64,000 bases of DNA from an uncultured Alphaproteobacteria bacterium (lineage in GTDB: Bacteria; Pseudomonadota; Alphaproteobacteria; HIMB59; GCA-002718135). The stretch spans positions 560,240-624,239 of the forward strand of contig CACIED010000001.1 of the NCBI GenBank assembly GCA_902585605.1. The letters run 5' to 3'. The notes under the pieces were generated by a model, which saw only the letters and a list, made by a program, of their open reading frames with translations, had not been told where the DNA came from and did no database searches. Below, in pieces: positions 12,732 to 22,875 of the stretch (the stretch's first letter is position 1; each line of letters starts with the position of its first letter). A program made the position numbers and the translations under genes.

Positions 12732-14494
12732 TGAATCAATCAAATTTAAAAAAATTACAAAATCTATTAAAAGAAAAAGATAGCGATATATTTATCATTA
12801 ATAGAAGTGATGAATATTTAAATGAGTATATTTCTCCATATGCAGAAAGATTAAATTTTATAACAAACTTTTCTGGTTCAGCAGGAAGAGCAATTATAAC
12901 ACCAACAGATGCATTCTTGTATGTTGATGGACGATATACTTTTCAAGCAAATACTCAAATTAATGCCAAAGAGATTCAAGCTAAACACTTAAATAGCTTT
13001 TGGACAGATTTAGAAAAAATTTTATTAGAAAAAGAATGTAAAATTGCTTTAGATCCAACTCTTCATTCAGTTATAGAAATTGAAAAAGTGGAAAAAATGT
13101 TAAAGAATTCAACATCTCAACTCCAACTAATAGATAAAAATTTTGTTGATTTAATATGGGAAAATCAACCAAAAACTCAGTATACAGATATATTTGATCA
13201 TCCAACAAGTTTTGCTGGTAAGGGCAGAAGTGAAAAATTAGATATTTTAAAAAAATTTTTCGATCAAAATGAAATTGATCATTACTTTGTTTCTGGGCTT
13301 GATAATATTGCTTGGCTATTAAATTTAAGAGCAGATGATATTAAATATACACCACTGCTTTATTCTTATCTTCTAATTTCAAAAAATAATAAACACTCTT
13401 TGTATATTAAAGAGTCTTCAATGCCAAAAATACTAAAAAAGGAATTCCAAACACTAATTAATATTAATAATATTGAAAACATCGGATCAATTTTTAATAA
13501 AATTAAATCATCTGAATCAATTGGTTTAGATTTTAATTCTACCACATATTATTTTTTCGATCTTTTAAGAAAACAAAAAATAAATACTAAAAATTTAGCA
13601 AATCCATGTATTTTGTTAAAAGCTATCAAAAATGAAACTGAAATAGATGGAGCCAAAAAAGCACATATAAGAGATGGTGTTAGTATTACTAAATATATTT
13701 ATTGGTTGAAAAATATCATGGATCCTAATTCAAATGATGAAATAAGTGTTGCAAAACATTTAGAAAGTCTTCGAAGAAAAAATGAATTATTTCATTCACT
13801 ATCTTTTGATACAATATCAGCAATTGATAAAAATGCAGCCCTTCCTCATTACCGGGTTACTGAAGAAGGTAAATCATCTTTCTCAGATAATAATATTTAC
13901 CTTGTTGACTCAGGAGGGCAATATTTTGATGGAACAACCGATATAACAAGAACTATAATTATAGGTGAAGCAACAAAAGAACAAAAAGATAGATTTACGA
14001 GAGTTCTTAAGGGTCATATTGCTCTATCAAATCATATTTTTGACAAAGGAACAAAAGGTACAGATATTGATTATCTTGCAAGAAAAAGTTTGCAAGAAAT
14101 TAATTTAGATTATGATCATGGTACCGGTCACGGTATCGGAAGTTTTTTGAGTGTTCATGAAGCCCCACAACGTATTGCAAAAAAATCAATGTTTGATAGC
14201 GTTGAGTTGCTTCCAGGAATGATTTTATCCAATGAACCTGGATACTATAAAGAAAATGAATATGGGATAAGAATTGAAAACTTAATTGTTATTAATGAAA
14301 ATGCTAATAAAAAATTATACTTTGAAACTATTTCTTGGTGTCCAATTGATTTAGATCTTATTGATAGCACTCAATTAAATGAAATTGAGAAAGAGTGGCT
14401 AAATAAATATCACTCACAGGTGTATGAAAAATTAAAGTCTTTCCTTGTAGATGAAGAGAGAAATTGGCTTAAGAGAGTAACTGTGAAAATTTAA
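12731..14494 (+). CDS. Aminopeptidase P family (M24B) Xaa-Pro aminopeptidase
   Basis: DSGGQYFDGTTDITRT, HGTGHGIG, VHE, SNEPGYY and GIRIEN. Confidence 0.9.
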   Translation: MNQSNLKKLQNLLKEKDSDIFIINRSDEYLNEYISPYAERLNFITNFSGSAGRAIITPTDAFLYVDGRYTFQANTQINAKEIQAKHLNSFWTDLEKILLEKECKIALDPTLHSVIEIEKVEKMLKNSTSQLQLIDKNFVDLIWENQPKTQYTDIFDHPTSFAGKGRSEKLDILKKFFDQNEIDHYFVSGLDNIAWLLNLRADDIKYTPLLYSYLLISKNNKHSLYIKESSMPKILKKEFQTLININNIENIGSIFNKIKSSESIGLDFNSTTYYFFDLLRKQKINTKNLANPCILLKAIKNETEIDGAKKAHIRDGVSITKYIYWLKNIMDPNSNDEISVAKHLESLRRKNELFHSLSFDTISAIDKNAALPHYRVTEEGKSSFSDNNIYLVDSGGQYFDGTTDITRTIIIGEATKEQKDRFTRVLKGHIALSNHIFDKGTKGTDIDYLARKSLQEINLDYDHGTGHGIGSFLSVHEAPQRIAKKSMFDSVELLPGMILSNEPGYYKENEYGIRIENLIVINENANKKLYFETISWCPIDLDLIDSTQLNEIEKEWLNKYHSQVYEKLKSFLVDEERNWLKRVTVKI

Positions 14495-14507
14495 GTTAAG
14501 CCACCGA

Positions 14508-14684
14508 TTATGCGGCTTTCTTATTTATATCAAATTCAGTTTTTAAAAGATGCTTATCTAATTCTATTTTCCATTCCTTTCCATATTCAGATTTAAAGTA
14601 TTTTATTAAATCCTCATCACTATTGTAGTTTTTGTCACTTAAATCTTCGTATATTTTGTTAAAAAAATTAAAAACATTAATCAT
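14508..14684 (-). CDS. Small hypothetical protein (58 aa), absent from the ORF track
   Basis: Manual translation MINVFNFFNKIYEDLSDKNYNSDEDLIKYFKSEYGKEWKIELDKHLLKTEFDINKKAA*. AAGGA RBS about 7 nt upstream of the ATG. It fills the gap after the aminopeptidase. Confidence 0.65.
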   Translation of the reverse strand: MINVFNFFNKIYEDLSDKNYNSDEDLIKYFKSEYGKEWKIELDKHLLKTEFDINKKAA

Positions 14685-14752
14685 ATAAAATTCCTTTAAT
14701 ACTTTATGTAATAACTTTTATATGCAATAACAGTATAAATTTCTGAATTTTG

Positions 14753-14771
14753 ATATGCATTAAATGCATAT
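14753..14771. promoter_or_regulatory. Perfect inverted repeat ATATGCAT-TAA-ATGCATAT, candidate operator
   Basis: 19-bp palindrome in the intergenic region between the divergent 58-aa ORF and the ABC operon; related half-sites at about 14703-14731. Confidence 0.45.
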
Positions 14772-14939
14772 AACAAATATATATATAATTTTATAGAATA
14801 TCAAAAATAACGATTTTTAATCAATTTTTACTATTAAAGTTTAAGTTTAAATAAATTAGAGAAATTCAATTCGTTCATTATTGACTTTATATTTTAAATA
14901 CGGTTCAATCTTATTATAATCATTTTAATGGAGGGTAAA

Positions 14940-16235
14940 ATGAAAAAAAAGATCTCTAGGAGAAAGTTTATTAACCATACAGGTTCTGCTGCTCTTGCAG
15001 GTACTCTATTATCGCAAGTTGGTATGAAGTATGCATTTGCTGCTAACACTAAACCAGTTAGTCTTTTGCTTGGTTCACACATGGATTATTTGCAAGCTTT
15101 AGCTCCTGCTTATGCAGAAAAATATGGTGTTACACCAAGTATAGAAACAGTAACAACACCAGATCTATCTGTTAAATTAAATTCCGCGTATATTGCACGA
15201 AAAAGTGTAGGTGATGCAATATTTGTGACTGCTTCAGAAATTGCTGGTTTAGCTGATAAGGGTTGGTTGATGGATATGAGTGATTTTGTCAATGATACAT
15301 TAAAACCAAATGGTGTTATGGAAAACAGTCTAACTGCTGCAACTTACAAAGGCAAAGTCTATGCTGCCCCAATTACGATTGGTTGCCCAGTACTGCACTG
15401 GAATAAAAATTTACTTAAAAATGCAGGATTGGATACAGAAGCGCCTAATAATTGGCATCGTACAAAAAATTCTTGGAACGAACTTATTCGTTTTGCTAAA
15501 GAAATTAACGATCCTGATAATGATATATATGGTATTGTTGATGCTTGGGCAGGTACGCATAGTTTTTGGACTTTTGGAGCTTTACTTCAAGCGAATGGAG
15601 GAAGTTTCTTAGACGGAAATCTAGATCCGATCATGAATAGTGATGCGGGTGTTGAAGCTTTAAATATGATGGTTGATCTTTTACATAAAGATAAAATCAT
15701 TGACCCAGCTACGCCAACTTACACTTGGGTATTTGATGCATCTCCAAGCTATATGGCAGGGAAAAGAGGATTTTTCTTAACATGGCCATTTATTAGTGGA
15801 ATTGCAAATTTCACAGAAGATTCTGCAGTGCAAGGGATGAGTGGTATAGCACCACTTCCTGCATTAGAAACTTCTGCATCTGTGGATGGATCAGAATTTT
15901 TAGCAATACCTAAATATTCAGATAATCCTGAGGCAGGAATGCAATTTATTGAAATGGCTTTAAGTCCTGACAATCAGATATTGCAAGGTTCAACGTCGCC
16001 TTGGGCACCATCTTTAGAACCTGCTCTAGATCATCCAGATGTTCTGAAAAATATATCAATGGCAGGTGTTATTAAAGACTCATATCTATATCCTGTAGAT
16101 GCAGGTTTTTCTGCAGATAGAAATCAATGGGTTGAATTATTATCAAATGAAGTTTCATTAGCATTGACTCAAAAGAAAAGTGCTAAAGATGCTTTAAATG
16201 ATGCTGTTAAGCAAATTAATGCGAGCAGATCATAA
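14940..16235 (+). CDS. Carbohydrate (CUT1) ABC transporter substrate-binding protein with Tat signal
   Basis: GGAGG RBS before the ATG at 14940; SRRKFIN twin-arginine signal ending AFA; family-1 SBP features (LHWNKNLL, ASVDGSEFLAIPK). Confidence 0.85.
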   Translation: MKKKISRRKFINHTGSAALAGTLLSQVGMKYAFAANTKPVSLLLGSHMDYLQALAPAYAEKYGVTPSIETVTTPDLSVKLNSAYIARKSVGDAIFVTASEIAGLADKGWLMDMSDFVNDTLKPNGVMENSLTAATYKGKVYAAPITIGCPVLHWNKNLLKNAGLDTEAPNNWHRTKNSWNELIRFAKEINDPDNDIYGIVDAWAGTHSFWTFGALLQANGGSFLDGNLDPIMNSDAGVEALNMMVDLLHKDKIIDPATPTYTWVFDASPSYMAGKRGFFLTWPFISGIANFTEDSAVQGMSGIAPLPALETSASVDGSEFLAIPKYSDNPEAGMQFIEMALSPDNQILQGSTSPWAPSLEPALDHPDVLKNISMAGVIKDSYLYPVDAGFSADRNQWVELLSNEVSLALTQKKSAKDALNDAVKQINASRS

Positions 16236-16254
16236 TTAATAAAATACGCAAATT

Positions 16255-17049
16255 ATGAAAGTTAATTTGGGTAATTATACATGGGAGGAAGTTAAGGACT
16301 TATCAGATAAAGATCCGGTAGTTCTTCTTCCTCTTGGTGCATTCGAGCAGCATGGAAAACATTTACCGCTCAAAGTAGATGAATTTATGGTTAATAATAT
16401 TGCCAATGAGTCTGTAAAAAAATCTCACCAAAAGAATATTAATGCAGTTGTGGCACCAGTTATTTGGTCAGGTTATTCACCGCATCATATGGATTTTCCT
16501 GGTACGATTTCTATTAAGGATGAAACATTAACAAATGTTATTTTGGATATAGTTGAGAGTTTGGTAAAAAATAAATTAGAAAGAATACTTATTTTGAATG
16601 GGCATGGAGGCAATATTGCTATTCTTAAAAATGTTGGACAAAAGTTAAAATACGATAAAAATATTTATATAGCTACAGCATCATATTGGGATTTTGCTAT
16701 GAAAGAAATTAATGAGTGGAGAGATTCTGATCTTGGTGGAATAAATCATGCATGTGAAATGGAAACAGCACTTATGTTACATATGCAAGAGGAAATAGTT
16801 AAAAAAGATAAAATTGTCGACAACCCATTAAAAAGATCTTCATATACAGGAGTTGACCTTTTATCAGGTGGTTCAGTTGGAGTAAGTGCAAGCTTTAAAG
16901 AGCTTTCAGATCATGGAGTTATTGGCTCACCAAGTCTTGCTTCCAAAAAGAAAGGCACTGAACTTTATGAGATAATAACAGATAAAGTTTCAGACTTTAT
17001 TGAAGATTTTTCAAAATGGGCAAAACCTTTAAATGGTAAAAATGAATAA
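16255..17049 (+). CDS. Creatininase / creatinine amidohydrolase family protein (COG1402)
   Basis: GAFEQHGKHLPLKVD, GYSPHHMDFPGTI, NGHGGN and HACEMET metal-binding motifs. Confidence 0.88.
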   Translation: MKVNLGNYTWEEVKDLSDKDPVVLLPLGAFEQHGKHLPLKVDEFMVNNIANESVKKSHQKNINAVVAPVIWSGYSPHHMDFPGTISIKDETLTNVILDIVESLVKNKLERILILNGHGGNIAILKNVGQKLKYDKNIYIATASYWDFAMKEINEWRDSDLGGINHACEMETALMLHMQEEIVKKDKIVDNPLKRSSYTGVDLLSGGSVGVSASFKELSDHGVIGSPSLASKKKGTELYEIITDKVSDFIEDFSKWAKPLNGKNE

Positions 17050-18253
17050 AAAAGATTTAGCCTTATTTTGTTATCCCTGGGACGTAATTGATGAAGGTTA
17101 TGATGCAATTATTGATGCAGTAAAGAGAAGTGGACTTAATGCAATTTATATTACTGTAAATTATCACTCAGGAATGTTTTTTTTACCTCATAGTAAAAAA
17201 AGAAAAATATATTTTCCTGAACCTGGGGCTTTATACTTCAATCCAAGTAGTTGGCATAATAATCATAGTTTTCAATCCCCTATAAGTAATCTTACTGAGA
17301 ATTGGAGTCAGTTTTGGGAAGAATTATCAAATCAATGTAAAAAAAATAATATCAAATTATGCGCATGGATGCTTGGTACTCATAATTCTGGAATTGGAAA
17401 TAATTATCCCAGTACATCTGTATATAATGCTTGGGGTGATCCAATCACACACTCTCTATGTCCCTTTAATTCGGACGTAGTTGATCATTTTGTCAATTTA
17501 TCAAGAGATGTAGTAAATCTAGGTGTATTTGATAAAATTCTAATTGAATCTCTTGAATATCTTCCATTAAGACACGGGCATCACCATGAAGTAATTGGAG
17601 TAGATTTTTCAGCTGATATCGATTTTATTATGTCACTTAACTTTAGTAATAAATGTTTAGAGACTTTGAAGCAAAAAAATATTGATGGTGAAATGATTAG
17701 AAACTGGGTTAAAAAAACTACAGATGATTATTTTAATCAAAAAATAAAAAAAGAAGTTATGAATTGGTCTGATTTTCAAAGTATTCTTGATGGTGAGTTT
17801 TGGAATTACTATTTGGTAAGAGAAGAAAGTATAACAAACATCAATACTTTGGTAGTCAATGAATTACGAAAAGATAAAAATTTAAAAATTGGTTTAGTTG
17901 ACTTTGGTCCATTATATCCACTTGGTCCTAATAATCAAAGATGGCAAAATGGTGTAAATTTAAATACTCTATTACCCTTGATTGATGAAATTCATCCAAC
18001 TTTTTATTTTGCAGATTTAGATCTTATAAAAGAAAAATATGATGTTTATAAAAAAGTATTAAATAACAAAGTTGAAATGATACCTGCAATGAGAACAATC
18101 CTCCCACAAGTTTCTAATCAATTAGATCTTAAGAACCAACTTCAAGTATTTAATAAAGATGCATCAGGATTTAGCTTCTATAACTACTCATTTATGAATT
18201 ATGAAAACTTAGACTGGATTAATCAAAGTCTTTCTGAAAATGGAGATATTTGA
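17042..18253 (+). CDS. Uncharacterised soluble protein, probable glycoside-hydrolase-like TIM barrel
   Basis: About 400 aa with alternating beta/alpha pattern and motifs YPWD, NYHSG, LGTHN, LCP, DKILIESLEY and HGHHHE. No signal peptide or TM segment. The fold assignment is inference. Confidence 0.45.
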   Translation: MNKKDLALFCYPWDVIDEGYDAIIDAVKRSGLNAIYITVNYHSGMFFLPHSKKRKIYFPEPGALYFNPSSWHNNHSFQSPISNLTENWSQFWEELSNQCKKNNIKLCAWMLGTHNSGIGNNYPSTSVYNAWGDPITHSLCPFNSDVVDHFVNLSRDVVNLGVFDKILIESLEYLPLRHGHHHEVIGVDFSADIDFIMSLNFSNKCLETLKQKNIDGEMIRNWVKKTTDDYFNQKIKKEVMNWSDFQSILDGEFWNYYLVREESITNINTLVVNELRKDKNLKIGLVDFGPLYPLGPNNQRWQNGVNLNTLLPLIDEIHPTFYFADLDLIKEKYDVYKKVLNNKVEMIPAMRTILPQVSNQLDLKNQLQVFNKDASGFSFYNYSFMNYENLDWINQSLSENGDI

Positions 18254-19011
18254 GAATGAATACTACTGTTGATATTTTAATAAATCCCGTAACTTTAAGA
18301 TTTAGTTATCACAATAGCGAATTAATTTATATGTTTGCTTCACATCCAGAACAACAACTTGATGAGATGGAAAAACTTATGGGTGTAACTACTGATGATG
18401 GACCAATTTTTGATACAAATGTTGGTTTTTTACCAGTAGCTTCAACTACACTAATTAGAGGTGAGAAAAATATTTTAGTTGATCCTGGTAATTATCATAT
18501 CGGTTTTTATTCTATATTAAAGAGAGCACTGGCTTCAAAAAATTTAACATATGAAGATATCGATATAGTAGCTACTACTCATACACATTCTGATCATGCA
18601 GCTTCTATTGTTCATTTTAGAAATAAACCATGGATTATTGGAGGCAAAGAATTTGATGATATGGTTGCTATTGAGGGAAAAGAAATTGTAGATGCTAAAA
18701 AATCAATGATGGGAGAAATAATTGAAATCTCAGATGATAATGAGACAAAAATTATGGAAAATGTCTGTGCAATAACCACTCCGGGACATACAAATGGCCA
18801 TATATCTTTTATAGTTAAAAGTAATGATGAAACTATTTTAATTGCTGGTGATCAAACTATGACAAAGGAAGAGTATTGTGAGAGAAAATTTTCTAGATGG
18901 TATCCAGAAGCAAATTTAAAACAATTAAACGAATCACTAGATAAAGCACAAAGCTATAAACCAGATCTTGTAATTCCAGGACATGACAGATCTTTTAAAC
19001 CAACCAAGTAA
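18250..19011 (+). CDS. Metallo-beta-lactamase-fold hydrolase (lactonase-like)
   Basis: LVDPG, THTHSDH (HxHxDH), TPGHTNGH, AGD and IPGH. Confidence 0.85.
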   Translation: MRMNTTVDILINPVTLRFSYHNSELIYMFASHPEQQLDEMEKLMGVTTDDGPIFDTNVGFLPVASTTLIRGEKNILVDPGNYHIGFYSILKRALASKNLTYEDIDIVATTHTHSDHAASIVHFRNKPWIIGGKEFDDMVAIEGKEIVDAKKSMMGEIIEISDDNETKIMENVCAITTPGHTNGHISFIVKSNDETILIAGDQTMTKEEYCERKFSRWYPEANLKQLNESLDKAQSYKPDLVIPGHDRSFKPTK

Positions 19012-19912
19012 TTCTCAATTCAAATTTTCAAGAGAAAAAATTCTTGCTTTCACACTAATACTTCCTTCTTTAATTCTAGTTTTTATAACTTATTTATATC
19101 CAGCTATATTTACTTTTGTAATAAGTTTTGCCGAATATGATATAATTCGCTTAAAAATAAAAAAATTTATTCAATTTAAAAACTTTGAATTTTTAATAAG
19201 TAATTATTTTTTTACAAGTTCTGTCTTAAGAACTATTTACTTCGGGTTTTTGATCTGCGTGTGTACAACAATATTTTCTTTCTTGATCGCACTTCTTTTA
19301 AATGAAAAATTTATTGGAAAAGCATTTTTAAGAGTCATGATTGTATTACCTTGGGCAGTGCCATCTGTTGTTTCTGGTGTACTGTGGGGACAAATGTTTC
19401 ATGCTGATACTGGGTTTTTAAATGCTTTATTATATCAATTAGGGGTCATATCAGGTTACAAAATTTGGTTAGCAGATCCATTAGTAGCCCTTCATGTAAT
19501 AGCTATTGCTGAAATCTGGAAAGCAATTCCTTTCATGACATTATTTTTTTTATCAGGACTACAAAGTTTACCCTCGGAAGTTTTTGAGGCTGCAGCAGTT
19601 GATGGAGCAAATGTATTTCAAAGGTTCTCTAACATTTTATTTCCTTTAATGTTACCAATTGCGATACCACTTTTCTTGATACAATTTGTTTTAGCAATGA
19701 AATCATTTGATACAATTTTTGTTCTTACAAGAGGGGGGCCAGGGGGTGGAACAACAACATTAAATTATTTTATTTATCAAGAAGCATTTGAAACTTTTAA
19801 TCTAGGCCGAGCTTCAGCAGCGGCCTATGTTTTGCTAATAATTACTTTAGCTGTTGTATTAATTCCAACCATTTCAAGATTTTTAATAAAATTTTTTTGG
19901 GGTAATAAATGA
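18983..19912 (+). CDS. Carbohydrate ABC transporter permease (MalF/UgpA-like)
   Basis: Multiple TM helices; EAA loop EAAAVDGANVFQRF; TRGGP. Confidence 0.9.
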   Translation: MTDLLNQPSNSQFKFSREKILAFTLILPSLILVFITYLYPAIFTFVISFAEYDIIRLKIKKFIQFKNFEFLISNYFFTSSVLRTIYFGFLICVCTTIFSFLIALLLNEKFIGKAFLRVMIVLPWAVPSVVSGVLWGQMFHADTGFLNALLYQLGVISGYKIWLADPLVALHVIAIAEIWKAIPFMTLFFLSGLQSLPSEVFEAAAVDGANVFQRFSNILFPLMLPIAIPLFLIQFVLAMKSFDTIFVLTRGGPGGGTTTLNYFIYQEAFETFNLGRASAAAYVLLIITLAVVLIPTISRFLIKFFWGNK

Positions 19913-20742
19913 AAAAAAATTTGATTCTAAAAAATTTTTTTATTTATTTTTCTGCTCTCATAGTATTTTTAATAATGTTTTTTCCACTATACGGTTTGAT
20001 ATTAACAAGCATACAACCTGAAAATATAATTAGATCTAGAAATTTGTCTTTTTTTCCAACAGAAATTATATTTACTCATTTTGCTGAGGTTTTGAAACCT
20101 AATCATATATCTAATATTTATGAGGGTATTAAAAATAGTCTTATTGTTTCATTCCTCACATCTTTTTTATGCATAATTTTAGCTTTTCCGGCAGCATACT
20201 CACTTGCAAGATTAAATTTACCAGCTAAAAATATTATTCTTGGAACTTTAATTTCTATTTATTTTCTTCCAACAATACTTTTTGTAATTCCCTTATTTGT
20301 TATATTAGTTTCATATCAACTAGATGACACTATTTTAAGTCTAGTTGTTCCGTATACTGCCTTTACATTACCTTTTGTGATTTGGATTTTAAAATCATTT
20401 ATTGATAAGCTACCTGTTGAGGTGGAGGAAGCTGCAAAAATTGATGGTTGTTCTACTCTACAACTTTTAATTCACATCATTTTCCCTTTATTGAGACCTG
20501 GTTTAATAGCAGCCTTCATATTTGCATTTATTTTATCTTGGGTTGAATTTTTAACGCCTTTAATATTTACTAATAATTTGAAAATTTCTACAGTAGCACT
20601 TGGATTATTTAGGAGCACTATAGACATTAAAATTGGTCAACAAGCAGCAGCAGCAATAATTACTTTAATTCCAGTAACAATACTAATGATTTTTTTTCAA
20701 CAATATATTACAAAAGTAGTATTATCGGGAAGTGATAAATAA
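19909..20742 (+). CDS. Carbohydrate ABC transporter permease (MalG/UgpE-like)
   Basis: KNSLIVS, AAYSLARL and EAA loop EEAAKIDGC. Confidence 0.9.
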   Translation: MKKNLILKNFFIYFSALIVFLIMFFPLYGLILTSIQPENIIRSRNLSFFPTEIIFTHFAEVLKPNHISNIYEGIKNSLIVSFLTSFLCIILAFPAAYSLARLNLPAKNIILGTLISIYFLPTILFVIPLFVILVSYQLDDTILSLVVPYTAFTLPFVIWILKSFIDKLPVEVEEAAKIDGCSTLQLLIHIIFPLLRPGLIAAFIFAFILSWVEFLTPLIFTNNLKISTVALGLFRSTIDIKIGQQAAAAIITLIPVTILMIFFQQYITKVVLSGSDK

Positions 20743-21749
20743 TGAGTAAATTAAAAATTGCAGTTATTGGAACTGGTTTAGTTGGCACATTTCATGCAGA
20801 AGCTTTTTTTAGAAATCCTAATTCTGATCTTGTTGCTGTTTGCGATGTAGATAAAGAAAAGGTTAATTCTGTTGCACAATCATTTAATTGTAAAGCTTAT
20901 GAAGATTTTACAAAATTAATAAACACTGAAACACTAGATGCTATTAGTATTGCTACACCCGAACAAATAAGAATAGAGCCTGCTGTTATGTCAGTAAAAA
21001 AAGGTTTAAAAATTTTGCTAGAAAAACCTCTCGGTAGAAATTTGGAAAAAATACATGAGTTAGTCGATAAAATAAAAGATCATAACAAAATTATTTCTGT
21101 AAATTTTATTCTTCATGAAGATCCGAGATATAAATTAATGAAAGAAAAAGTTAAAAATGACGAAATTGGCAATATCGTATCTTGTTTTGCACGAAGAAGG
21201 GGTAACAGGTTTGGAATTGAAATTTATGCTCCATGGACTGACCTTTTATCTTCAACTTTAATTCATGATATTCAAATGACCATGTCAATTAATAAATCAA
21301 AGCCAGTTAGAGTTTTTGCTGAGGCAGTTATTAGAGAATGTAAGGAATATGATTCGCATGATGCTGTAATGGCAATCATGAAATTTGATGATGGAAGTTT
21401 GGCTTCCTTTGAAACATCTTGGGTATTGCCTAAAAATCAACCTGAGCCACTTGATCCAGCACTTCATGTTATAGGAGATAAAGGATCAATTATTATAGAA
21501 GGATCATCAATGGGTTTGCAGATGCAAACAGAAAAAAATTACATGAAGCCGGATATTGCTAATTGGCCAACTATAGACTCAAAAGTGGACGGGTGTTTAA
21601 AGAGGGGTTTAGATAAATTTATTGACGACTGCGTTTTTGATCAAAAACCAGCGGTAAATTTACAGGCTGCTTTAGAAGCAGAAAGAGTCGTATTTGCGAT
21701 GAAGGAATCAATTGCTAAAGGTATTCCAATCGATATTAATATATCGTAA
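20742..21749 (+). CDS. Gfo/Idh/MocA-family NAD(P)-dependent oxidoreductase
   Basis: IAVIGTGLVG Rossmann motif, ISIATP, LEKP and IHDI. Confidence 0.9.
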   Translation: MSKLKIAVIGTGLVGTFHAEAFFRNPNSDLVAVCDVDKEKVNSVAQSFNCKAYEDFTKLINTETLDAISIATPEQIRIEPAVMSVKKGLKILLEKPLGRNLEKIHELVDKIKDHNKIISVNFILHEDPRYKLMKEKVKNDEIGNIVSCFARRRGNRFGIEIYAPWTDLLSSTLIHDIQMTMSINKSKPVRVFAEAVIRECKEYDSHDAVMAIMKFDDGSLASFETSWVLPKNQPEPLDPALHVIGDKGSIIIEGSSMGLQMQTEKNYMKPDIANWPTIDSKVDGCLKRGLDKFIDDCVFDQKPAVNLQAALEAERVVFAMKESIAKGIPIDINIS

Positions 21750-21771
21750 ATTTTAAATTCTTTAAATTTTA

Positions 21772-22875
21772 ATGATAATTATATTAACACAATGTTTTCC
21801 ATCAAGAGTTGGAGGGATAGAAACCCTAATGTACAATATAGCATTGCACCTTAGTCGTTCTAAAGATGTAATTGTATTAGCAGATCAACAAAATTTTAAG
21901 GAAGATAATATTTTTGATCAAAATGAAATAAATTTTTCTACAAAAAGATTTCGAGGTATAAAGTTTTTCAGAAATAGAAAAAAATTTAATGAACTTAAAA
22001 AAATACATGGTTTATCAAAAATTGATGCAGTAATTAGTGATAGTTGGAAAAGCCTTGAAGTAACAATAGATTTTCTTAAAAAAAATAAAATACCAGTTAT
22101 CAGCTTAGCTCATGGTAATGAAATAATAATTAAAAATGATAAACATCATAAACGTGTAAAAAAAATATTAGAACATGCAAATGCAATAGTAGTAAATTCA
22201 AACTACACAAAAAATTTACTAAATAAAATAAGTAATAATTTTAAAAATGTTAAAATAATATACCCAGGTATTAATATTAAAAAAAATTATATTGAAGAAT
22301 ATATAAGTTTAAATCAAGGTTCGCCAAAATTACTTACTCTTGCAAGACTTGAAAAGAGAAAAGGTCATGCTTTAATTTTAAAATCTATAATGAACTTAAA
22401 AAAATATTTTCCTGATATTCAATACATAATTGCAGGTGAAGGCAAGGAACTAGATAGTATTAAAAATAAAATTAAAGAATATAATCTTCAAGATAATGTA
22501 AATTTAGTTGGCACCGTTAACGAAAATCAAAAAAATTATATATTCTCTAATACTGATTTAATGATCATGCCAACTCTAGATGAGAGTTCATCGAAATCTA
22601 TTGAAGGGTTTGGTATAGCCTACATAGAAGCAGCAAATTTTAAAATACCCTCAATAGCATCAGATATAGGGGGTACTCCTGAAGCTGTAATACACAATAA
22701 AACAGGTTTAATAATAAAAGATATTGATGAATTAGATGAAGCAATAAAAAACTTGATAGATAATAATGAAGACAGATTAACGCTTGGTCAAAATGCTAAA
22801 ATTAGAGCAGAAAATGAACTTAACTGGGATATTCAAATAAAAAAATACAATGATTTAATTAAAGAAATTCAATGA
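21772..22875 (+). CDS. Glycosyltransferase family 4
   Basis: FPSRVGGIE, ARLEKRKG and EGFGIAYIEA (ExFG...E). Confidence 0.88.
   Translation: MIIILTQCFPSRVGGIETLMYNIALHLSRSKDVIVLADQQNFKEDNIFDQNEINFSTKRFRGIKFFRNRKKFNELKKIHGLSKIDAVISDSWKSLEVTIDFLKKNKIPVISLAHGNEIIIKNDKHHKRVKKILEHANAIVVNSNYTKNLLNKISNNFKNVKIIYPGINIKKNYIEEYISLNQGSPKLLTLARLEKRKGHALILKSIMNLKKYFPDIQYIIAGEGKELDSIKNKIKEYNLQDNVNLVGTVNENQKNYIFSNTDLMIMPTLDESSSKSIEGFGIAYIEAANFKIPSIASDIGGTPEAVIHNKTGLIIKDIDELDEAIKNLIDNNEDRLTLGQNAKIRAENELNWDIQIKKYNDLIKEIQ

What the first reader, a model, noticed from the sequence alone, without database searches (positions are those of the whole stretch)
14940..21749. Orphan catabolic operon: CUT1 ABC importer plus creatininase-fold, TIM-barrel, MBL hydrolase and Gfo/Idh/MocA enzymes
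Seven tightly coupled genes are inserted in core synteny between the aminopeptidase P and GT4 genes. The enzyme combination does not match any pathway I can name exactly. Established analogies: the Thermotoga inositol pathway pairs a Gfo/Idh/MocA dehydrogenase (IolG) with a creatininase-family ring-opening hydrolase (IolN), and COG1402 members also act as amidohydrolases or deformylases. Inference: uptake and breakdown of a modified sugar, cyclitol or N-substituted glycoside from marine DOM, by oxidation, lactone or ring hydrolysis, and amide cleavage.
Basis: partly seen in the sequence, partly recalled or inferred. Interest (0 to 1): 0.68.

Follow-up and report, generated by a model that had tools for sequence, protein, structure and literature searches.

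The report
Uncharacterised sugar-breakdown gene island, ocean bacterium
A seven-gene uptake-and-breakdown cassette sits as an inserted island in an abundant, genome-streamlined ocean bacterium; the same cassette, built around an enzyme family nobody has described, recurs across many bacterial phyla and probably burns a nitrogen-containing (amino) sugar by an oxidative route, but its substrate is still unknown.

Summary
Seven overlapping or closely spaced + strand genes (14940-21749) encode a Tat-signal CUT1 binding protein, a creatininase-family hydrolase, a 406-aa protein with no Pfam match, an MBL-fold hydrolase, two permeases and a Gfo/Idh/MocA dehydrogenase. There is no ATPase. Same-genus genomes have an empty site, so window 14792-21734 is an insertion; only 2 of 60 relatives carry it.

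It is not an orphan. The same seven genes, usually with an M81 (MlrC-like) peptidase and often a class-III aminotransferase, RidA, an RraA-like aldolase and IclR, recur in Alphaproteobacteria, Trueperaceae, Actinomycetota, Bacillota and Chloroflexota. The 406-aa protein models confidently as a glycosidase-like TIM barrel and founds a family of about 1,400 representative clusters.

Distant paralogues sit in clusters where an SDR replaces Gfo, Amidohydro_2 replaces MBL, and other deacylases, PLP or enolase-type enzymes, RidA, KdgK and Eda appear. This points to sugar to lactone to amino-aldonate to deamination to 2-keto-3-deoxy acid, like the published GlcNAc1A (ong) pathway but with different enzyme families.

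My best reading is oxidative, non-phosphorylative catabolism of an N-acyl amino-sugar glycoside. The substrate is inferred, not shown. I found no paper that characterises the cassette.

The parts
14792..21734 (.). Inserted DNA segment (the island). It is absent from same-genus genomes, where about 59 bp stand in its place.
   Evidence: blastn of the empty site of G003 (L016) against window 14300-22000: homology ends at 14791 and resumes at 21735. The empty-site gene order is seen in G003, G005, G010 and G015. There is no tRNA, flanking repeat or mobility gene.
14893..14920 (+). Promoter-like site (TTTAAA-16-TATAAT) 20 nt upstream of the first gene, inside the inserted DNA.
   Evidence: Consensus scan, 10 of 12 matches. 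The number of such sites is not above the shuffle expectation in this AT-rich DNA, so this is only a candidate.
14940..16235 (+). CUT1-type periplasmic solute-binding protein with a Tat-like signal (MKKKISRRKFINHTGSAALA).
   Evidence: PF01547 6.6e-34 and PF13416 6e-26. The best solved relative is the Thermococcus trehalose/maltose-binding protein 1eu8, 1e-28. GGAGG lies before the ATG at 14940.
16255..17049 (+). Creatininase-family (PF02633) metal amidohydrolase. It is not a true creatininase. Proposed role: N-deacylase of the amino-sugar or amino-aldonate.
   Evidence: PF02633 5.6e-67. MftE 135.5, creatininase 123.7 and IolN 86.3 bits are all below their cut-offs. E-x-H, D and H ligands and the His178 equivalent are conserved, but the motif is GHGGN instead of GHYEN, so Glu122 is missing.
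17033..18253 (+). 406-aa founding member of an undescribed (beta/alpha)8-barrel family ('X406'). Proposed role: glycoside-cleaving or keto-sugar-processing step coupled to the dehydrogenase.
   Evidence: No Pfam, NCBIfam or PDB sequence hit. Only weak GHL10/GHL13 hits in some members. AF2 pLDDT 91.7. Foldseek best matches are the PgaB C-terminal domain (GH153), beta-amylase and GH35/GH42, with TM 0.5-0.59. 1,409 representative clusters at E<=1e-10. Family-wide invariants: Y14 W16 D17, Y44 H45, H117 N118, C143, E172, H184 H185, R263, Y325, Y383 N384 Y385.
18250..19011 (+). MBL-fold binuclear-metal hydrolase of the lactonase-like branch. Proposed role: sugar-lactone hydrolase.
   Evidence: PF00753 8.9e-18. 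Best NCBIfam hits are the AiiA, AttM and AidB lactonases and 4-pyridoxolactonase, all far below their cut-offs. The HTHSDH motif, the later His, the Asp and the final His are present, but AiiA Tyr194 is not conserved. Amidohydro_2 lactonase-family genes take this position in the Paenibacillus paralogue cluster.
18983..19912 (+). ABC permease 1 (MalF/UgpA-like).
   Evidence: PF00528 7.4e-17; UgpA 1e-38 and MalF 1.7e-30, below cut-off.
19909..20742 (+). ABC permease 2 (MalG/UgpE-like).
   Evidence: PF00528 2.6e-19; GlcU, MalG and UgpE hits below cut-off.
20742..21749 (+). Gfo/Idh/MocA NAD(P)-dependent dehydrogenase. Proposed role: sugar 1-dehydrogenase that makes the lactone.
   Evidence: PF01408 1.3e-24 plus the C-terminal domains. 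IolG 131.7 bits (cut-off 355) and archaeal UDP-GlcNAc 3-dehydrogenase 129.6 bits (cut-off 450). The best solved relatives are inositol dehydrogenases at about 1e-18. An SDR takes this position in paralogue clusters.
21772..22875 (+). GT4 glycosyltransferase next to the island. Its allele co-varies with island presence.
   Evidence: 94-99% identical in island-bearing single-cell genomes L021-L029, but 66-71% in island-free genomes, while other flanking genes are 88-98% identical.

Best explanation
The segment is a laterally exchanged catabolic island. It is a reduced copy of a widely conserved cassette of seven to eight genes or more.

Shown:
- The seven genes form a tight unit inserted at a conserved chromosomal site.
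- The same set recurs across phyla.
- The 406-aa protein is a TIM-barrel enzyme of an undescribed family.

Inferred mechanism:
1. A CUT1 ABC importer takes up a small N-acyl amino-sugar glycoside. Diacetylchitobiose-like or another N-acetylhexosamine disaccharide is the concrete guess. The importer is energised by a MalK-type ATPase encoded elsewhere.
2. In the cytoplasm the TIM-barrel enzyme releases the (N-acyl)amino sugar.
3. The Gfo/Idh/MocA dehydrogenase oxidises C1 to the lactone.
4. The MBL-fold enzyme opens the lactone to a 2-acylamino-aldonate. This compound is chemically an N-acyl-D-amino acid.
5. The creatininase-family amidohydrolase removes the acyl group, giving a 2-amino-aldonate.
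6. In fuller versions of the cassette, an M81 peptidase, a HemL/GntE-like class-III PLP enzyme, RidA and an RraA-like class-II aldolase deaminate the amino-aldonate to a 2-keto(-3-deoxy) acid and split it.
7. In this genome, candidates for those last steps lie in a second island 515 kb away: a fold-type-III PLP deaminase-like enzyme, RidA, an HpcH aldolase, RraA and a NagA-like enzyme.

The route would be non-phosphorylative and would yield carbon and ammonium.
For: Unit and insertion.

Conservation:
- All seven genes are together in Mesorhizobium, Rubrobacter and Dethiobacter.
- In 25 diverse loci, X406 and MBL occur in 24, SBP/creatininase/permeases/Gfo in 23, MlrC in 21, AT3 in 13, IclR in 11, RidA in 10, MalK in 10 and RraA in 5.
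- In Dethiobacter 14 genes lie on one strand: AT3, RraA, creatininase, X406, MBL, SBP, two permeases, Gfo, MlrC, two ATPases, RidA and IclR.

Non-orthologous replacement shows the roles:
- Paenibacillus: MR_MLE, SBP, two permeases, X406-like, two Amidohydro_2, creatininase, SDR, RidA.
- Haloferax and Haloarcula: IclR, then UgpC, creatininase, SBP, two permeases, X406-like, MR_MLE, SDR, RidA; Haloferax adds eda and kdgK next door.
- Rhizobium pRL10, Aminobacter and Aureimonas: sugar ABC, amidohydrolase, fold-III PLP enzyme and X406-like in all three; Rhizobium and Aminobacter add RidA and an AstE/aspartoacylase-like deacylase; Rhizobium also has RraA, an SDR and IclR.
- Acidobacteriota: X406-like, SDR, Gfo, with an Amidohydro_1/3 gene adjacent.

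Precedent: the ong pathway converts GlcNAc1A by a deacylase, a fold-III PLP deaminase, an essential RidA and KdgK (PMC9537276).

The creatininase homologue is nearer to amide hydrolases than to IolN. Its metal ligands and those of the MBL enzyme are intact.

X406's nearest fold is the PgaB C-terminal domain, solved with GlcN and GlcNAc bound.

The genome's best hits to MlrC, AT3, RidA and RraA all fall in C1:41-64 kb. The same region holds NagA-like, ROK, fold-III PLP and HpcH aldolase genes.

The fold-III PLP gene is present in both X406 carriers, and in 5 of the 25 same-genus genomes searched in all.
Against: - No enzyme of the cassette has a characterised close relative, and every NCBIfam hit is far below its cut-off. 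The substrate is therefore inferred from context only.
- The binding protein's nearest solved relatives bind trehalose/maltose and other neutral oligosaccharides, not chitobiose.
- X406 has invariant His, His-His, Cys, Asp and Glu residues. These fit a metal site better than a classical two-carboxylate glycosidase.
- Across the whole X406 family its most constant neighbour is a dehydrogenase (SDR in 73% of distant paralogue loci). It could therefore act on the oxidised sugar rather than on a glycosidic bond.
- In the Rhizobium-type clusters X406 sits with a CUT2 transporter, which normally carries monosaccharides. A glycosidase role is not obviously needed there.
- The nearly universal MlrC has no necessary role in my scheme.
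- The island in this genome lacks every deaminating step, and linkage to the second island is only statistical (2 of 2 carriers against 3 of 23 non-carriers, incomplete MAGs).
- The genome has no KDPG aldolase.
Confidence: 0.4

Rival explanations
1. Sugar-amino-acid conjugate route. The substrate is an Amadori/Heyns- or opine-like compound (a sugar or polyol N-linked to an amino acid) that can exist as a lactone or lactam. The dehydrogenase oxidises the sugar part. The MBL enzyme opens a lactone and the creatininase-fold enzyme opens a lactam or amide. MlrC or other peptidases free the amino acid, which AT3, RidA and RraA then degrade.
For: - Peptidase-type amidohydrolases are constant partners: MlrC in 21 of 25 loci, and M20 or AstE-like enzymes in paralogue clusters.
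- The Rhizobium pRL10 cluster carries a polar-amino-acid ABC transporter as well as a sugar ABC transporter, and lies next to the PxpABC 5-oxoprolinase (lactamase) genes.
- Paralogues are strongly enriched on Rhizobium plasmids, 113 of 158 plasmid records.
- The MBL enzyme is nearest to N-acyl-homoserine-lactone hydrolases.
- Creatininase and MftE both act on cyclic amide or peptide-derived substrates (established knowledge).
Against: - There is no deglycase, kinase or amadoriase-type gene in the cassette.
- The Haloferax cluster sits next to KdgK and Eda and contains an enolase-superfamily enzyme. This fits a sugar-acid end product.
- The cassette is spread through marine oligotrophs, hot-spring and saline lineages. 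This argues for a ubiquitous compound, not plant-tumour opines.
Confidence: 0.2
2. Cyclitol route. The Gfo enzyme is an inositol-type dehydrogenase and the creatininase-fold enzyme is an IolN-like C-C hydrolase that opens an oxidised cyclitol ring. The substrate is a cyclitol or a cyclitol glycoside.
For: - The best NCBIfam and PDB relatives of the Gfo enzyme are inositol 2-dehydrogenases.
- IolN belongs to the creatininase family and gives a hit of 1.9e-24.
- Rubrobacter has a second, 300-aa creatininase-family gene with an aldolase nearby.
Against: - IolG scores 131.7 bits against a cut-off of 355, and IolN 86.3 against 245. The amide hydrolases MftE and creatininase score higher.
- No other iol genes (IolE, IolD, IolB, IolC) are present in any locus inspected.
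- The dehydrogenase is replaceable by an SDR and the MBL enzyme by Amidohydro_2 lactonase-family genes. This fits sugar to lactone to acid.
- RidA and PLP enzymes have no role in inositol cleavage.
Confidence: 0.1
3. Keto-glycoside route. The dehydrogenase oxidises the imported glycoside at C3, as glycoside 3-dehydrogenases, DgpA or LgdA do. X406 is a metal-dependent TIM-barrel lyase or hydrolase that cleaves or rearranges the keto-sugar. The MBL and creatininase enzymes process the released aglycone.
For: - X406's most constant partner across the whole family is a dehydrogenase: SDR next door in 73% of distant paralogue loci, and Gfo in 86% of orthologue loci.
- The invariant His/His-His/Cys/Asp/Glu set suggests a metal centre.
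- The Gfo enzyme gives partial hits to levoglucosan dehydrogenase, disaccharide 3-dehydrogenase and glycoside 3-dehydrogenase models.
Against: - Foldseek places X406 nearest to glycosidase-type barrels. No xylose-isomerase-like barrel, the fold used by known keto-sugar eliminases (from memory), appears among the 50 matches shown.
- The recurring lactonase function, supplied by two unrelated folds, is unexplained.
- The hits to 3-dehydrogenase models cover only the NAD-binding domain.
Confidence: 0.12
4. Plain neutral disaccharide importer (trehalose/maltose type), as KEGG-style annotation of this clade implies, with unrelated enzymes next to it.
For: - The binding protein is nearest to the trehalose/maltose-binding protein 1eu8.
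- A survey of AEGEAN-169 genomes lists a 'trehalose/maltose ABC transporter' in part of the clade (PMC10308909).
Against: - The four enzymes are interleaved with the transporter genes and overlap them.
- They travel with the transporter across phyla.
- Similarity to 1eu8 is remote, and the MalE model scores 21 bits against a cut-off of 291.
- There is no trehalase, phosphorylase or amylase gene in the cassette.
Confidence: 0.04

Closest known systems
ong pathway for oxidised chitin products (GlcNAc1A) in Pseudoalteromonas prydzensis (Jiang et al. 2022, PMC9537276)
   Same: The logic is the same. A glycosidase frees the sugar acid. An N-acyl-D-amino-acid-type deacylase follows. Deamination gives a 2-keto-3-deoxy acid with a RidA protein that is genetically essential, and the product then enters KDG metabolism. 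RidA, PLP or enolase-type deaminating enzymes and deacylases recur around the X406 family.
   Different: None of the ong protein families is in this island. GH20 OngA, amidohydrolase OngB, fold-III PLP OngC, the SSS transporter and the TonB receptors are all missing. Here the sugar acid would be made inside the cell by Gfo plus an MBL lactonase. Uptake is by a CUT1 ABC system. The hydrolases are creatininase-fold and an undescribed TIM barrel.
Oxidative non-phosphorylative sugar pathways (Weimberg/Dahms, L-rhamnose, L-fucose; haloarchaeal Gfo6 xylose dehydrogenase plus lactonase)
   Same: A dehydrogenase (Gfo/Idh/MocA or SDR) is followed by a lactonase (MBL or Amidohydro_2), an enolase-superfamily dehydratase and an aldolase, under an IclR regulator. 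These families and their interchangeability are seen in the paralogue clusters.
   Different: Those pathways need no amidohydrolase, RidA, aminotransferase or X406-type enzyme, and they act on neutral monosaccharides.
Thermotoga maritima inositol pathway (IolG plus the creatininase-family hydrolase IolN)
   Same: It pairs a Gfo/Idh/MocA dehydrogenase with a creatininase-family hydrolase.
   Different: The IolN and IolG models are both missed by wide margins. No other iol genes are present. The partner genes point to amino-acid-like deamination.
PgaB C-terminal domain (GH153) and the Pfam GHL10/GHL13 'glycosyl hydrolase-like' TIM barrels
   Same: These are the nearest fold matches for X406 (E 1e-12, TM 0.56-0.59). 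Some family members give weak sequence hits to them.
   Different: Identity is only 11-13% and no member reaches the Pfam threshold. X406 is cytoplasmic, single-domain and has its own invariant His/Cys/Asp/Glu set. PgaB is a periplasmic biofilm-polysaccharide enzyme.
Archaeal chitobiose route (Thermococcus Dac deacetylase plus GlmA exo-glucosaminidase); recalled from memory
   Same: It pairs a deacetylase with a TIM-barrel exo-glycosidase (GH35-like) acting on an imported amino disaccharide. GH35 enzymes are among X406's fold neighbours.
   Different: The protein families differ (Dac is LmbE-type). That route goes on through phosphorylation, not through C1 oxidation.

Membership tests
CUT1 (carbohydrate uptake 1) ABC importer | A cluster-D/SBP_bac_1 binding protein plus two MalF/MalG-type BPD_transp_1 permeases. 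| tested here: met
   PF01547/PF13416 for the binding protein. PF00528 in both permeases, with UgpA/MalF and GlcU/MalG/UgpE as the best NCBIfam models.
CUT1 (carbohydrate uptake 1) ABC importer | A MalK/MsiK-type ATPase with a C-terminal regulatory domain, in the operon or shared. | tested here: not met
   There is no ATPase gene in 14792-21734. MalK-like genes lie elsewhere in the genome, 43-52% identical to the cassette-linked MalK of Mesorhizobium: C1:202085-203167, C2:24593-25567, C9:33038-34096 and C1:435230-436339. A shared ATPase is assumed.
Creatininase (creatinine amidohydrolase, TIGR04448) | A score above the equivalog cut-off, and the second-metal ligand Glu122 (GHYEN motif). | tested here: not met
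   123.7 bits against a cut-off of 235. The motif reads GHGGN, so Glu122 is absent. Membership of the Pfam family PF02633 is met.
IolN 3-dehydro-scyllo-inosose hydrolase (NF041098) | A score above the equivalog cut-off, and iol gene context. | tested here: not met
   86.3 bits against 245. No iolB, iolC, iolD or iolE is present in any locus inspected.
MftE mycofactocin peptidase (TIGR03964) | A score above the cut-off, and mft gene context. | tested here: not met
   135.5 bits against 172. No mft genes are nearby.
AiiA-type N-acyl-homoserine lactonase (NF045699) | The HxHxDH binuclear zinc site plus the catalytic Tyr194, and a score above the cut-off. | tested here: not met
   HTHSDH and the later His, Asp and His are present, but Tyr194 aligns with Met. 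The score is 56.9 bits against 375. The protein is an MBL-fold hydrolase of the lactonase-like branch only.
IolG inositol 2-dehydrogenase (TIGR04380) | A score above the equivalog cut-off. | tested here: not met
   131.7 bits against 355. The Gfo/Idh/MocA superfamily domains are met.
Glycoside hydrolase (GH153/PgaB-C, GHL10/GHL13-like) | A (beta/alpha)8 barrel with sequence membership, identified catalytic carboxylates and demonstrated glycosidase activity. | tested here: inconclusive
   Fold: met. Sequence: only sub-threshold GHL10 hits (best E 0.0018, 6 of 38 members) and GHL13 hits (3 of 38). Candidate residues D17 and E172 are invariant, but so are H45, H117, C143, H184 and H185. Activity cannot be tested with these tools.
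ong (oxidised N-acetylglucosamine) utilisation cluster | Homologues of OngA (GH20), OngB (D-aminoacylase), OngC (fold-III PLP), OngD (RidA), KdgK and the SSS transporter, clustered together. | tested here: not met
   None of these families is in the island. A RidA gene, a fold-III PLP gene and a NagA-like amidohydrolase gene lie together 515 kb away. The cassette may work like ong, but it is not a member.

The most novel reading that the evidence does not exclude
X406 founds a new enzyme family. It is either a new glycoside-hydrolase family or a metal-dependent sugar-processing TIM barrel. Together with a creatininase-fold deacylase, it defines a widespread and so far unrecognised cytoplasmic pathway that oxidises N-acyl amino sugars, or a related class of nitrogen-bearing glycosides, without phosphorylation. 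The pathway is present from haloarchaea to streamlined ocean Alphaproteobacteria, where it moves between lineages as a flexible island.
Probability: 0.4. Interest if true: 0.75.

Novelty: new variant of a known kind. Interest (0 to 1): 0.6.

Why it matters
Amino sugars and N-acetylated polysaccharide fragments are a large share of marine dissolved organic nitrogen. How genome-streamlined oligotrophs use them is poorly known.

A compact cassette that needs no kinase and turns such a compound into a keto-acid plus ammonium would be a new entry in marine carbon and nitrogen budgets.

It would also give a function to a protein family of roughly 1,400 sequence clusters that has no Pfam model, and to a new branch of the creatininase fold.

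The cassette occurs in culturable bacteria and haloarchaea: Mesorhizobium, Pelagibacterium, Nesterenkonia, Rubrobacter, Haloferax mediterranei and Rhizobium johnstonii 3841. The question is therefore directly testable.

The island also shows clearly how flexible islands are swapped at a fixed chromosomal site in HIMB59/AEGEAN-169-type genomes.

Tried and rejected
- Sequence searches of X406 against Pfam, NCBIfam and PDB gave nothing usable. Scanning all 38 aligned members at E<=1 gave only weak GHL10/GHL13 hits.
- Literature searches found no paper on this cassette. The term sets were: creatininase + MocA + lactamase + MlrC; creatininase + lactonase + oxidoreductase + ABC; creatininase + glucosamine; creatininase alone since 2015; and creatininase/mandelate racemase/RidA/KDG/Haloferax.
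- The AEGEAN-169 survey mentions only generic sugar transporters.
- Earlier scan notes on the same protein added no function.
- I looked for mobility signatures around the island: tRNA, flanking direct repeats, integrase or transposase. None was found.
- The promoter and terminator scan was not above shuffle expectation.
- I considered and rejected the following: true creatinine catabolism (no creatinase or sarcosine oxidase; equivalog test failed); mycofactocin maturation (no mft genes); quorum quenching (the MBL enzyme is embedded in a sugar-transport operon and the Tyr194 equivalent is absent); and a pseudogenised remnant (all ORFs are intact and 97-100% conserved in nine other single-cell genomes).
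- Pyridoxine, pantothenate-glucoside, mycothiol, muropeptide and mycosporine ideas were considered from memory. I dropped them because they have no specific support.

Full report
**What is there.** The nearest public records are marine single-cell genomes and 'MarineAlpha5' MAGs.

Seven + strand ORFs lie between 14940 and 21749. They are separated by a 19-nt gap or overlap by 1-29 nt. Pfam and NCBIfam give the following:
- a CUT1-type binding protein with a Tat-like signal;
- a creatininase-family protein;
- a 406-aa protein with no match at all ('X406');
- an MBL-fold hydrolase;
- two MalF/MalG-type permeases;
- a Gfo/Idh/MocA dehydrogenase.

There is no ATPase in the segment. MalK-like ATPases lie elsewhere in the genome, so a shared ATPase has to be assumed, as is known for many CUT1 systems (established knowledge).

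**The insertion.**
- Only 2 of 60 related genomes encode X406.
- In four same-genus genomes the aminopeptidase P gene, a conserved 58-aa minus-strand ORF, the GT4 gene and the GhrA-like gene are directly adjacent.
- Alignment with one empty site places the inserted DNA at window 14792-21734, where about 59 bp stand in the empty genome.
- There is no tRNA, no flanking repeat and no mobility gene. Acquisition by homologous recombination through the flanks is the likely mode (inference).
- Nine further single-cell genomes carry the island with 97-100% identical proteins.
- In those genomes the GT4 neighbour is 94-99% identical to the window's copy. In island-free genomes it is only 66-71% identical. 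The exchanged tract therefore seems to include the GT4 allele.
- A more distant genome, MarineAlpha5_Bin5 (L030), has the island at the same site. There the flanking proteins are 51-65% identical to the window's but the island proteins are 78-92% identical.
- A close relative of G000 (L031) carries a divergent island allele: X406 is 80% identical while the flanks are 91-98% identical.
- Together this indicates lateral exchange of island alleles at a fixed hot spot. Stronger purifying selection on the island proteins could contribute to the contrast.
- The Bin5 and Bin7 versions also carry RraA-like and MlrC-like genes upstream and a RidA gene downstream. The window's island is therefore a reduced form.

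**Not an orphan.**
- X406 homologues from Mesorhizobium, Rubrobacter taiwanensis and a Dethiobacter MAG lie in clusters with the same six partners.
- A scan of one genome per species found 397 species with a relative.
- In 25 diverse loci with an orthologue, X406 and MBL were present in 24. SBP, creatininase, both permeases and Gfo were in 23, an M81 (MlrC-like) peptidase in 21, a class-III aminotransferase in 13, IclR in 11, RidA in 10, MalK in 10 and an RraA-like protein in 5. Searches are consistent with this.
- The hosts include Alphaproteobacteria, Trueperaceae, Actinomycetota (Rubrobacter, Nesterenkonia, Planktophila, a Bifidobacterium MAG), Bacillota (Limnochordales, Dethiobacter) and Chloroflexota.
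- The order creatininase-X406-MBL is kept in every orthologue locus that has all three genes.
- In Dethiobacter all 14 genes, including AT3, RraA, MlrC, RidA and IclR, are on one strand.

**The unknown protein.**
- An alignment of 38 homologues gave an AlphaFold2 model with mean pLDDT 91.7 and pTM 0.90, with an alternating strand-helix pattern.
- Foldseek against the PDB matches (beta/alpha)8 glycosidase-type barrels. The best is the PgaB C-terminal domain (GH153), solved with GlcN and GlcNAc bound (E 1e-12, TM 0.56-0.59). Beta-amylase, GH35, GH42, GH29, GH156 and GH20 enzymes follow.
- Sequence identity to these is 8-14%. Only some members give sub-threshold hits to Pfam GHL10 and GHL13.
- A profile search of 1.84 billion representative proteins finds 1,951 clusters at E<=0.001 and 1,409 at E<=1e-10.
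- Residues invariant even in paralogues at 23-28% identity lie mostly at strand ends: Y14 W16 D17, Y44 H45, H117 N118, C143, E172, H184 H185, R263, Y325 and Y383 N384 Y385.
- This set could be a glycosidase site. The His-rich, Cys-containing pattern equally suggests a metal centre. The reaction is therefore open.

**What the partners say.** None of the enzymes reaches an NCBIfam equivalog cut-off.
- The creatininase homologue keeps the metal ligands and the catalytic His. It has GHGGN instead of the creatininase-specific Glu122. It scores MftE > creatininase > IolN.
- The MBL enzyme has an intact HxHxDH site. It is nearest to lactonases but lacks the AiiA tyrosine.
- The Gfo enzyme is remotely inositol-dehydrogenase-like.

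The most informative evidence is non-orthologous replacement in clusters around distant X406 paralogues.
- Paenibacillus daejeonensis has an enolase-superfamily enzyme, a CUT1 transporter, X406-like, two Amidohydro_2 proteins (a family that includes sugar lactonases), a creatininase, an SDR and RidA.
- Haloferax mediterranei and Haloarcula hispanica have IclR, then UgpC, creatininase, CUT1 genes, X406-like, an enolase-superfamily enzyme, an SDR and RidA. In Haloferax, eda and kdgK are adjacent.
- Rhizobium johnstonii 3841 pRL10, Aminobacter and Aureimonas have a sugar ABC transporter, an amidohydrolase, a fold-type-III PLP 'alanine racemase' and X406-like. Rhizobium and Aminobacter add RidA and an AstE/aspartoacylase-like deacylase. 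Rhizobium also has an RraA-like aldolase, an SDR and IclR.
- Haladaptatus has Gfo, an aminotransferase, MBL, an M20 peptidase, a dipeptide-epimerase-like enzyme, X406-like and CUT1 genes.
- An Acidobacteriota locus has X406-like, an SDR and Gfo, with an Amidohydro_1/3 gene adjacent.

The constant functions are a dehydrogenase, a lactonase, an N-acyl-amino-acid-type amidohydrolase, a PLP or enolase-type enzyme with RidA, and an aldolase.

**Mechanism proposed.** These functions are what one needs to oxidise an N-acyl amino sugar at C1, open the lactone, deacylate the resulting N-acyl-2-amino-aldonate, and deaminate it to a 2-keto-3-deoxy acid through an enamine/imine. The N-acyl-2-amino-aldonate is chemically an N-acyl-D-amino acid.

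The published ong pathway for GlcNAc1A does the second half in this way. It uses a D-aminoacylase, a fold-III PLP deaminase, a genetically essential RidA and KDG kinase (PMC9537276). Others have predicted a glucosaminate route for chitin-degrading haloarchaea, whose chitinase clusters hold dehydratase, RutC/RidA-family and IclR genes (PMC12343721).

In the Haloferax-type cluster every enzyme then has one role: X406 as glycosidase, SDR as 1-dehydrogenase, creatininase fold as deacylase, enolase-type enzyme plus RidA as deaminating dehydratase, then KdgK and Eda.

For the window's island the same scheme gives import, X406, Gfo, MBL and the creatininase-fold deacylase, ending at a 2-amino-aldonate.

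The genome's best homologues of MlrC, AT3, RidA and RraA all lie in one region, C1:41-64 kb. That region also encodes NagA-like, ROK, fold-III PLP deaminase-like and HpcH-aldolase proteins. The fold-III PLP gene is itself accessory. It is present in both X406 carriers and in 5 of the 25 same-genus genomes searched in all. That is only suggestive, because the MAGs are incomplete. The genome has no KDPG aldolase, so a non-phosphorylative end is implied.

Every step after 'these genes form a conserved unit' is inference.

**Weak points and rivals.**
- The binding protein's nearest solved relatives bind neutral oligosaccharides.
- MlrC, although nearly universal, has no necessary role in the scheme. 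From established knowledge it cleaves an acyl-D-Glu bond in microcystin, so a deacylase role is possible.
- X406 occurs with monosaccharide-type transporters in Rhizobium-type clusters.
- Across the whole X406 family its most constant neighbour is a dehydrogenase. This leaves room for a role on an oxidised sugar.

The rivals are:
- a sugar-amino-acid conjugate (Amadori/opine-like) route;
- a keto-glycoside route;
- a plain disaccharide importer, which is very unlikely because the enzymes are interleaved with the transporter genes and conserved with them.

**Novelty and verdict.** Five literature searches aimed at the cassette and the NCBIfam library of June 2026 gave no characterised counterpart. 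A sixth search, on glucosaminate, yielded only the predicted haloarchaeal route cited above.

The kind of thing, an ABC-linked catabolic operon with an oxidative sugar route, is known. The enzyme set, and above all the X406 family and this branch of the creatininase fold, are not.

I rate it a new variant of a known kind, with interest 0.6. The general reading is a conserved, laterally exchanged cassette for a nitrogen-bearing sugar derivative, worked through oxidation, lactone hydrolysis and amide hydrolysis. I hold that at about 0.8. The specific amino-sugar scheme I hold at about 0.4.

Noticed in passing
window 14516-14692 (minus strand): A 58-aa ORF (MINVFNFFNKIYEDLSDKNYNSDEDL...) lies between the aminopeptidase P gene and the island. 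It is 86-97% identical in most same-genus genomes with or without the island, and 67% identical in the most divergent one tested. It looks like a real small gene of unknown function.
   Followed up: partly
window 14753-14771: A perfect palindrome, ATATGCAT-TAA-ATGCATAT, lies in the shared flank just left of the insertion point. A near-identical palindrome is present in the island-free site of G003, upstream of GT4. It may be an operator for the GT4 or small-ORF region.
   Followed up: partly
window 21772-22875: The GT4 glycosyltransferase exists as two alleles. One is 94-99% identical to the window's copy and occurs in island-bearing genomes. The other is 66-71% identical and occurs in island-free genomes. 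Neighbouring genes stay 88-98% identical. The recombination tract that carries the island seems to include GT4.
   Followed up: partly
own genome G000 C1:38000-68000 (loci L101, L102), about 515 kb from the window's island: A second catabolic island encodes: a ROK kinase; a HemL-like aminotransferase; an MlrC-like M81 peptidase; a DHDPS-family lyase; a class-IV aminotransferase; three PhyH dioxygenases; two PanB-like proteins; two BNR (sialidase-like) proteins; an MFS transporter; a NagA-like deacetylase (200 bits, cut-off 226); SDRs; RidA; a fold-III PLP D-Ser-dehydratase-like protein; an HpcH aldolase; two Gfo/Idh/MocA proteins; and an RraA-like protein. It looks like amino-sugar, sialic-acid or hydroxy-amino-acid catabolism.
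   Followed up: partly
L105 (Rhizobium johnstonii 3841 plasmid pRL10, record 430-451 kb): A paralogue of X406 (26% identity) sits on the symbiosis plasmid of a model rhizobium. Around it are an RraA-like aldolase, an SDR, amino-acid and sugar ABC transporters, an AstE-like deacylase, RidA, a fold-III PLP enzyme, IclR and the PxpABC 5-oxoprolinase genes. 113 of the 158 plasmid records with a hit are from Rhizobium. This offers a genetically tractable entry to the family.
   Followed up: partly
L002 (Rubrobacter taiwanensis) 14234-19418: Directly downstream of the cassette lies a second cluster: LacI, a 300-aa creatininase-family protein (IolN-sized), a class-II aldolase, a UPF0261 protein and a zinc alcohol dehydrogenase. 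It may be a separate cyclitol or sugar route that uses the other branch of the creatininase fold.
   Followed up: no
L103 (Paenibacillus daejeonensis) 15270-20513: Next to the paralogue cluster lies a 1,202-aa GH85 endo-beta-N-acetylglucosaminidase with cohesin, plus SLH and dockerin proteins. This extracellular enzyme releases GlcNAc-containing glycans. The neighbourhood fits an amino-sugar theme but may be coincidental.
   Followed up: no
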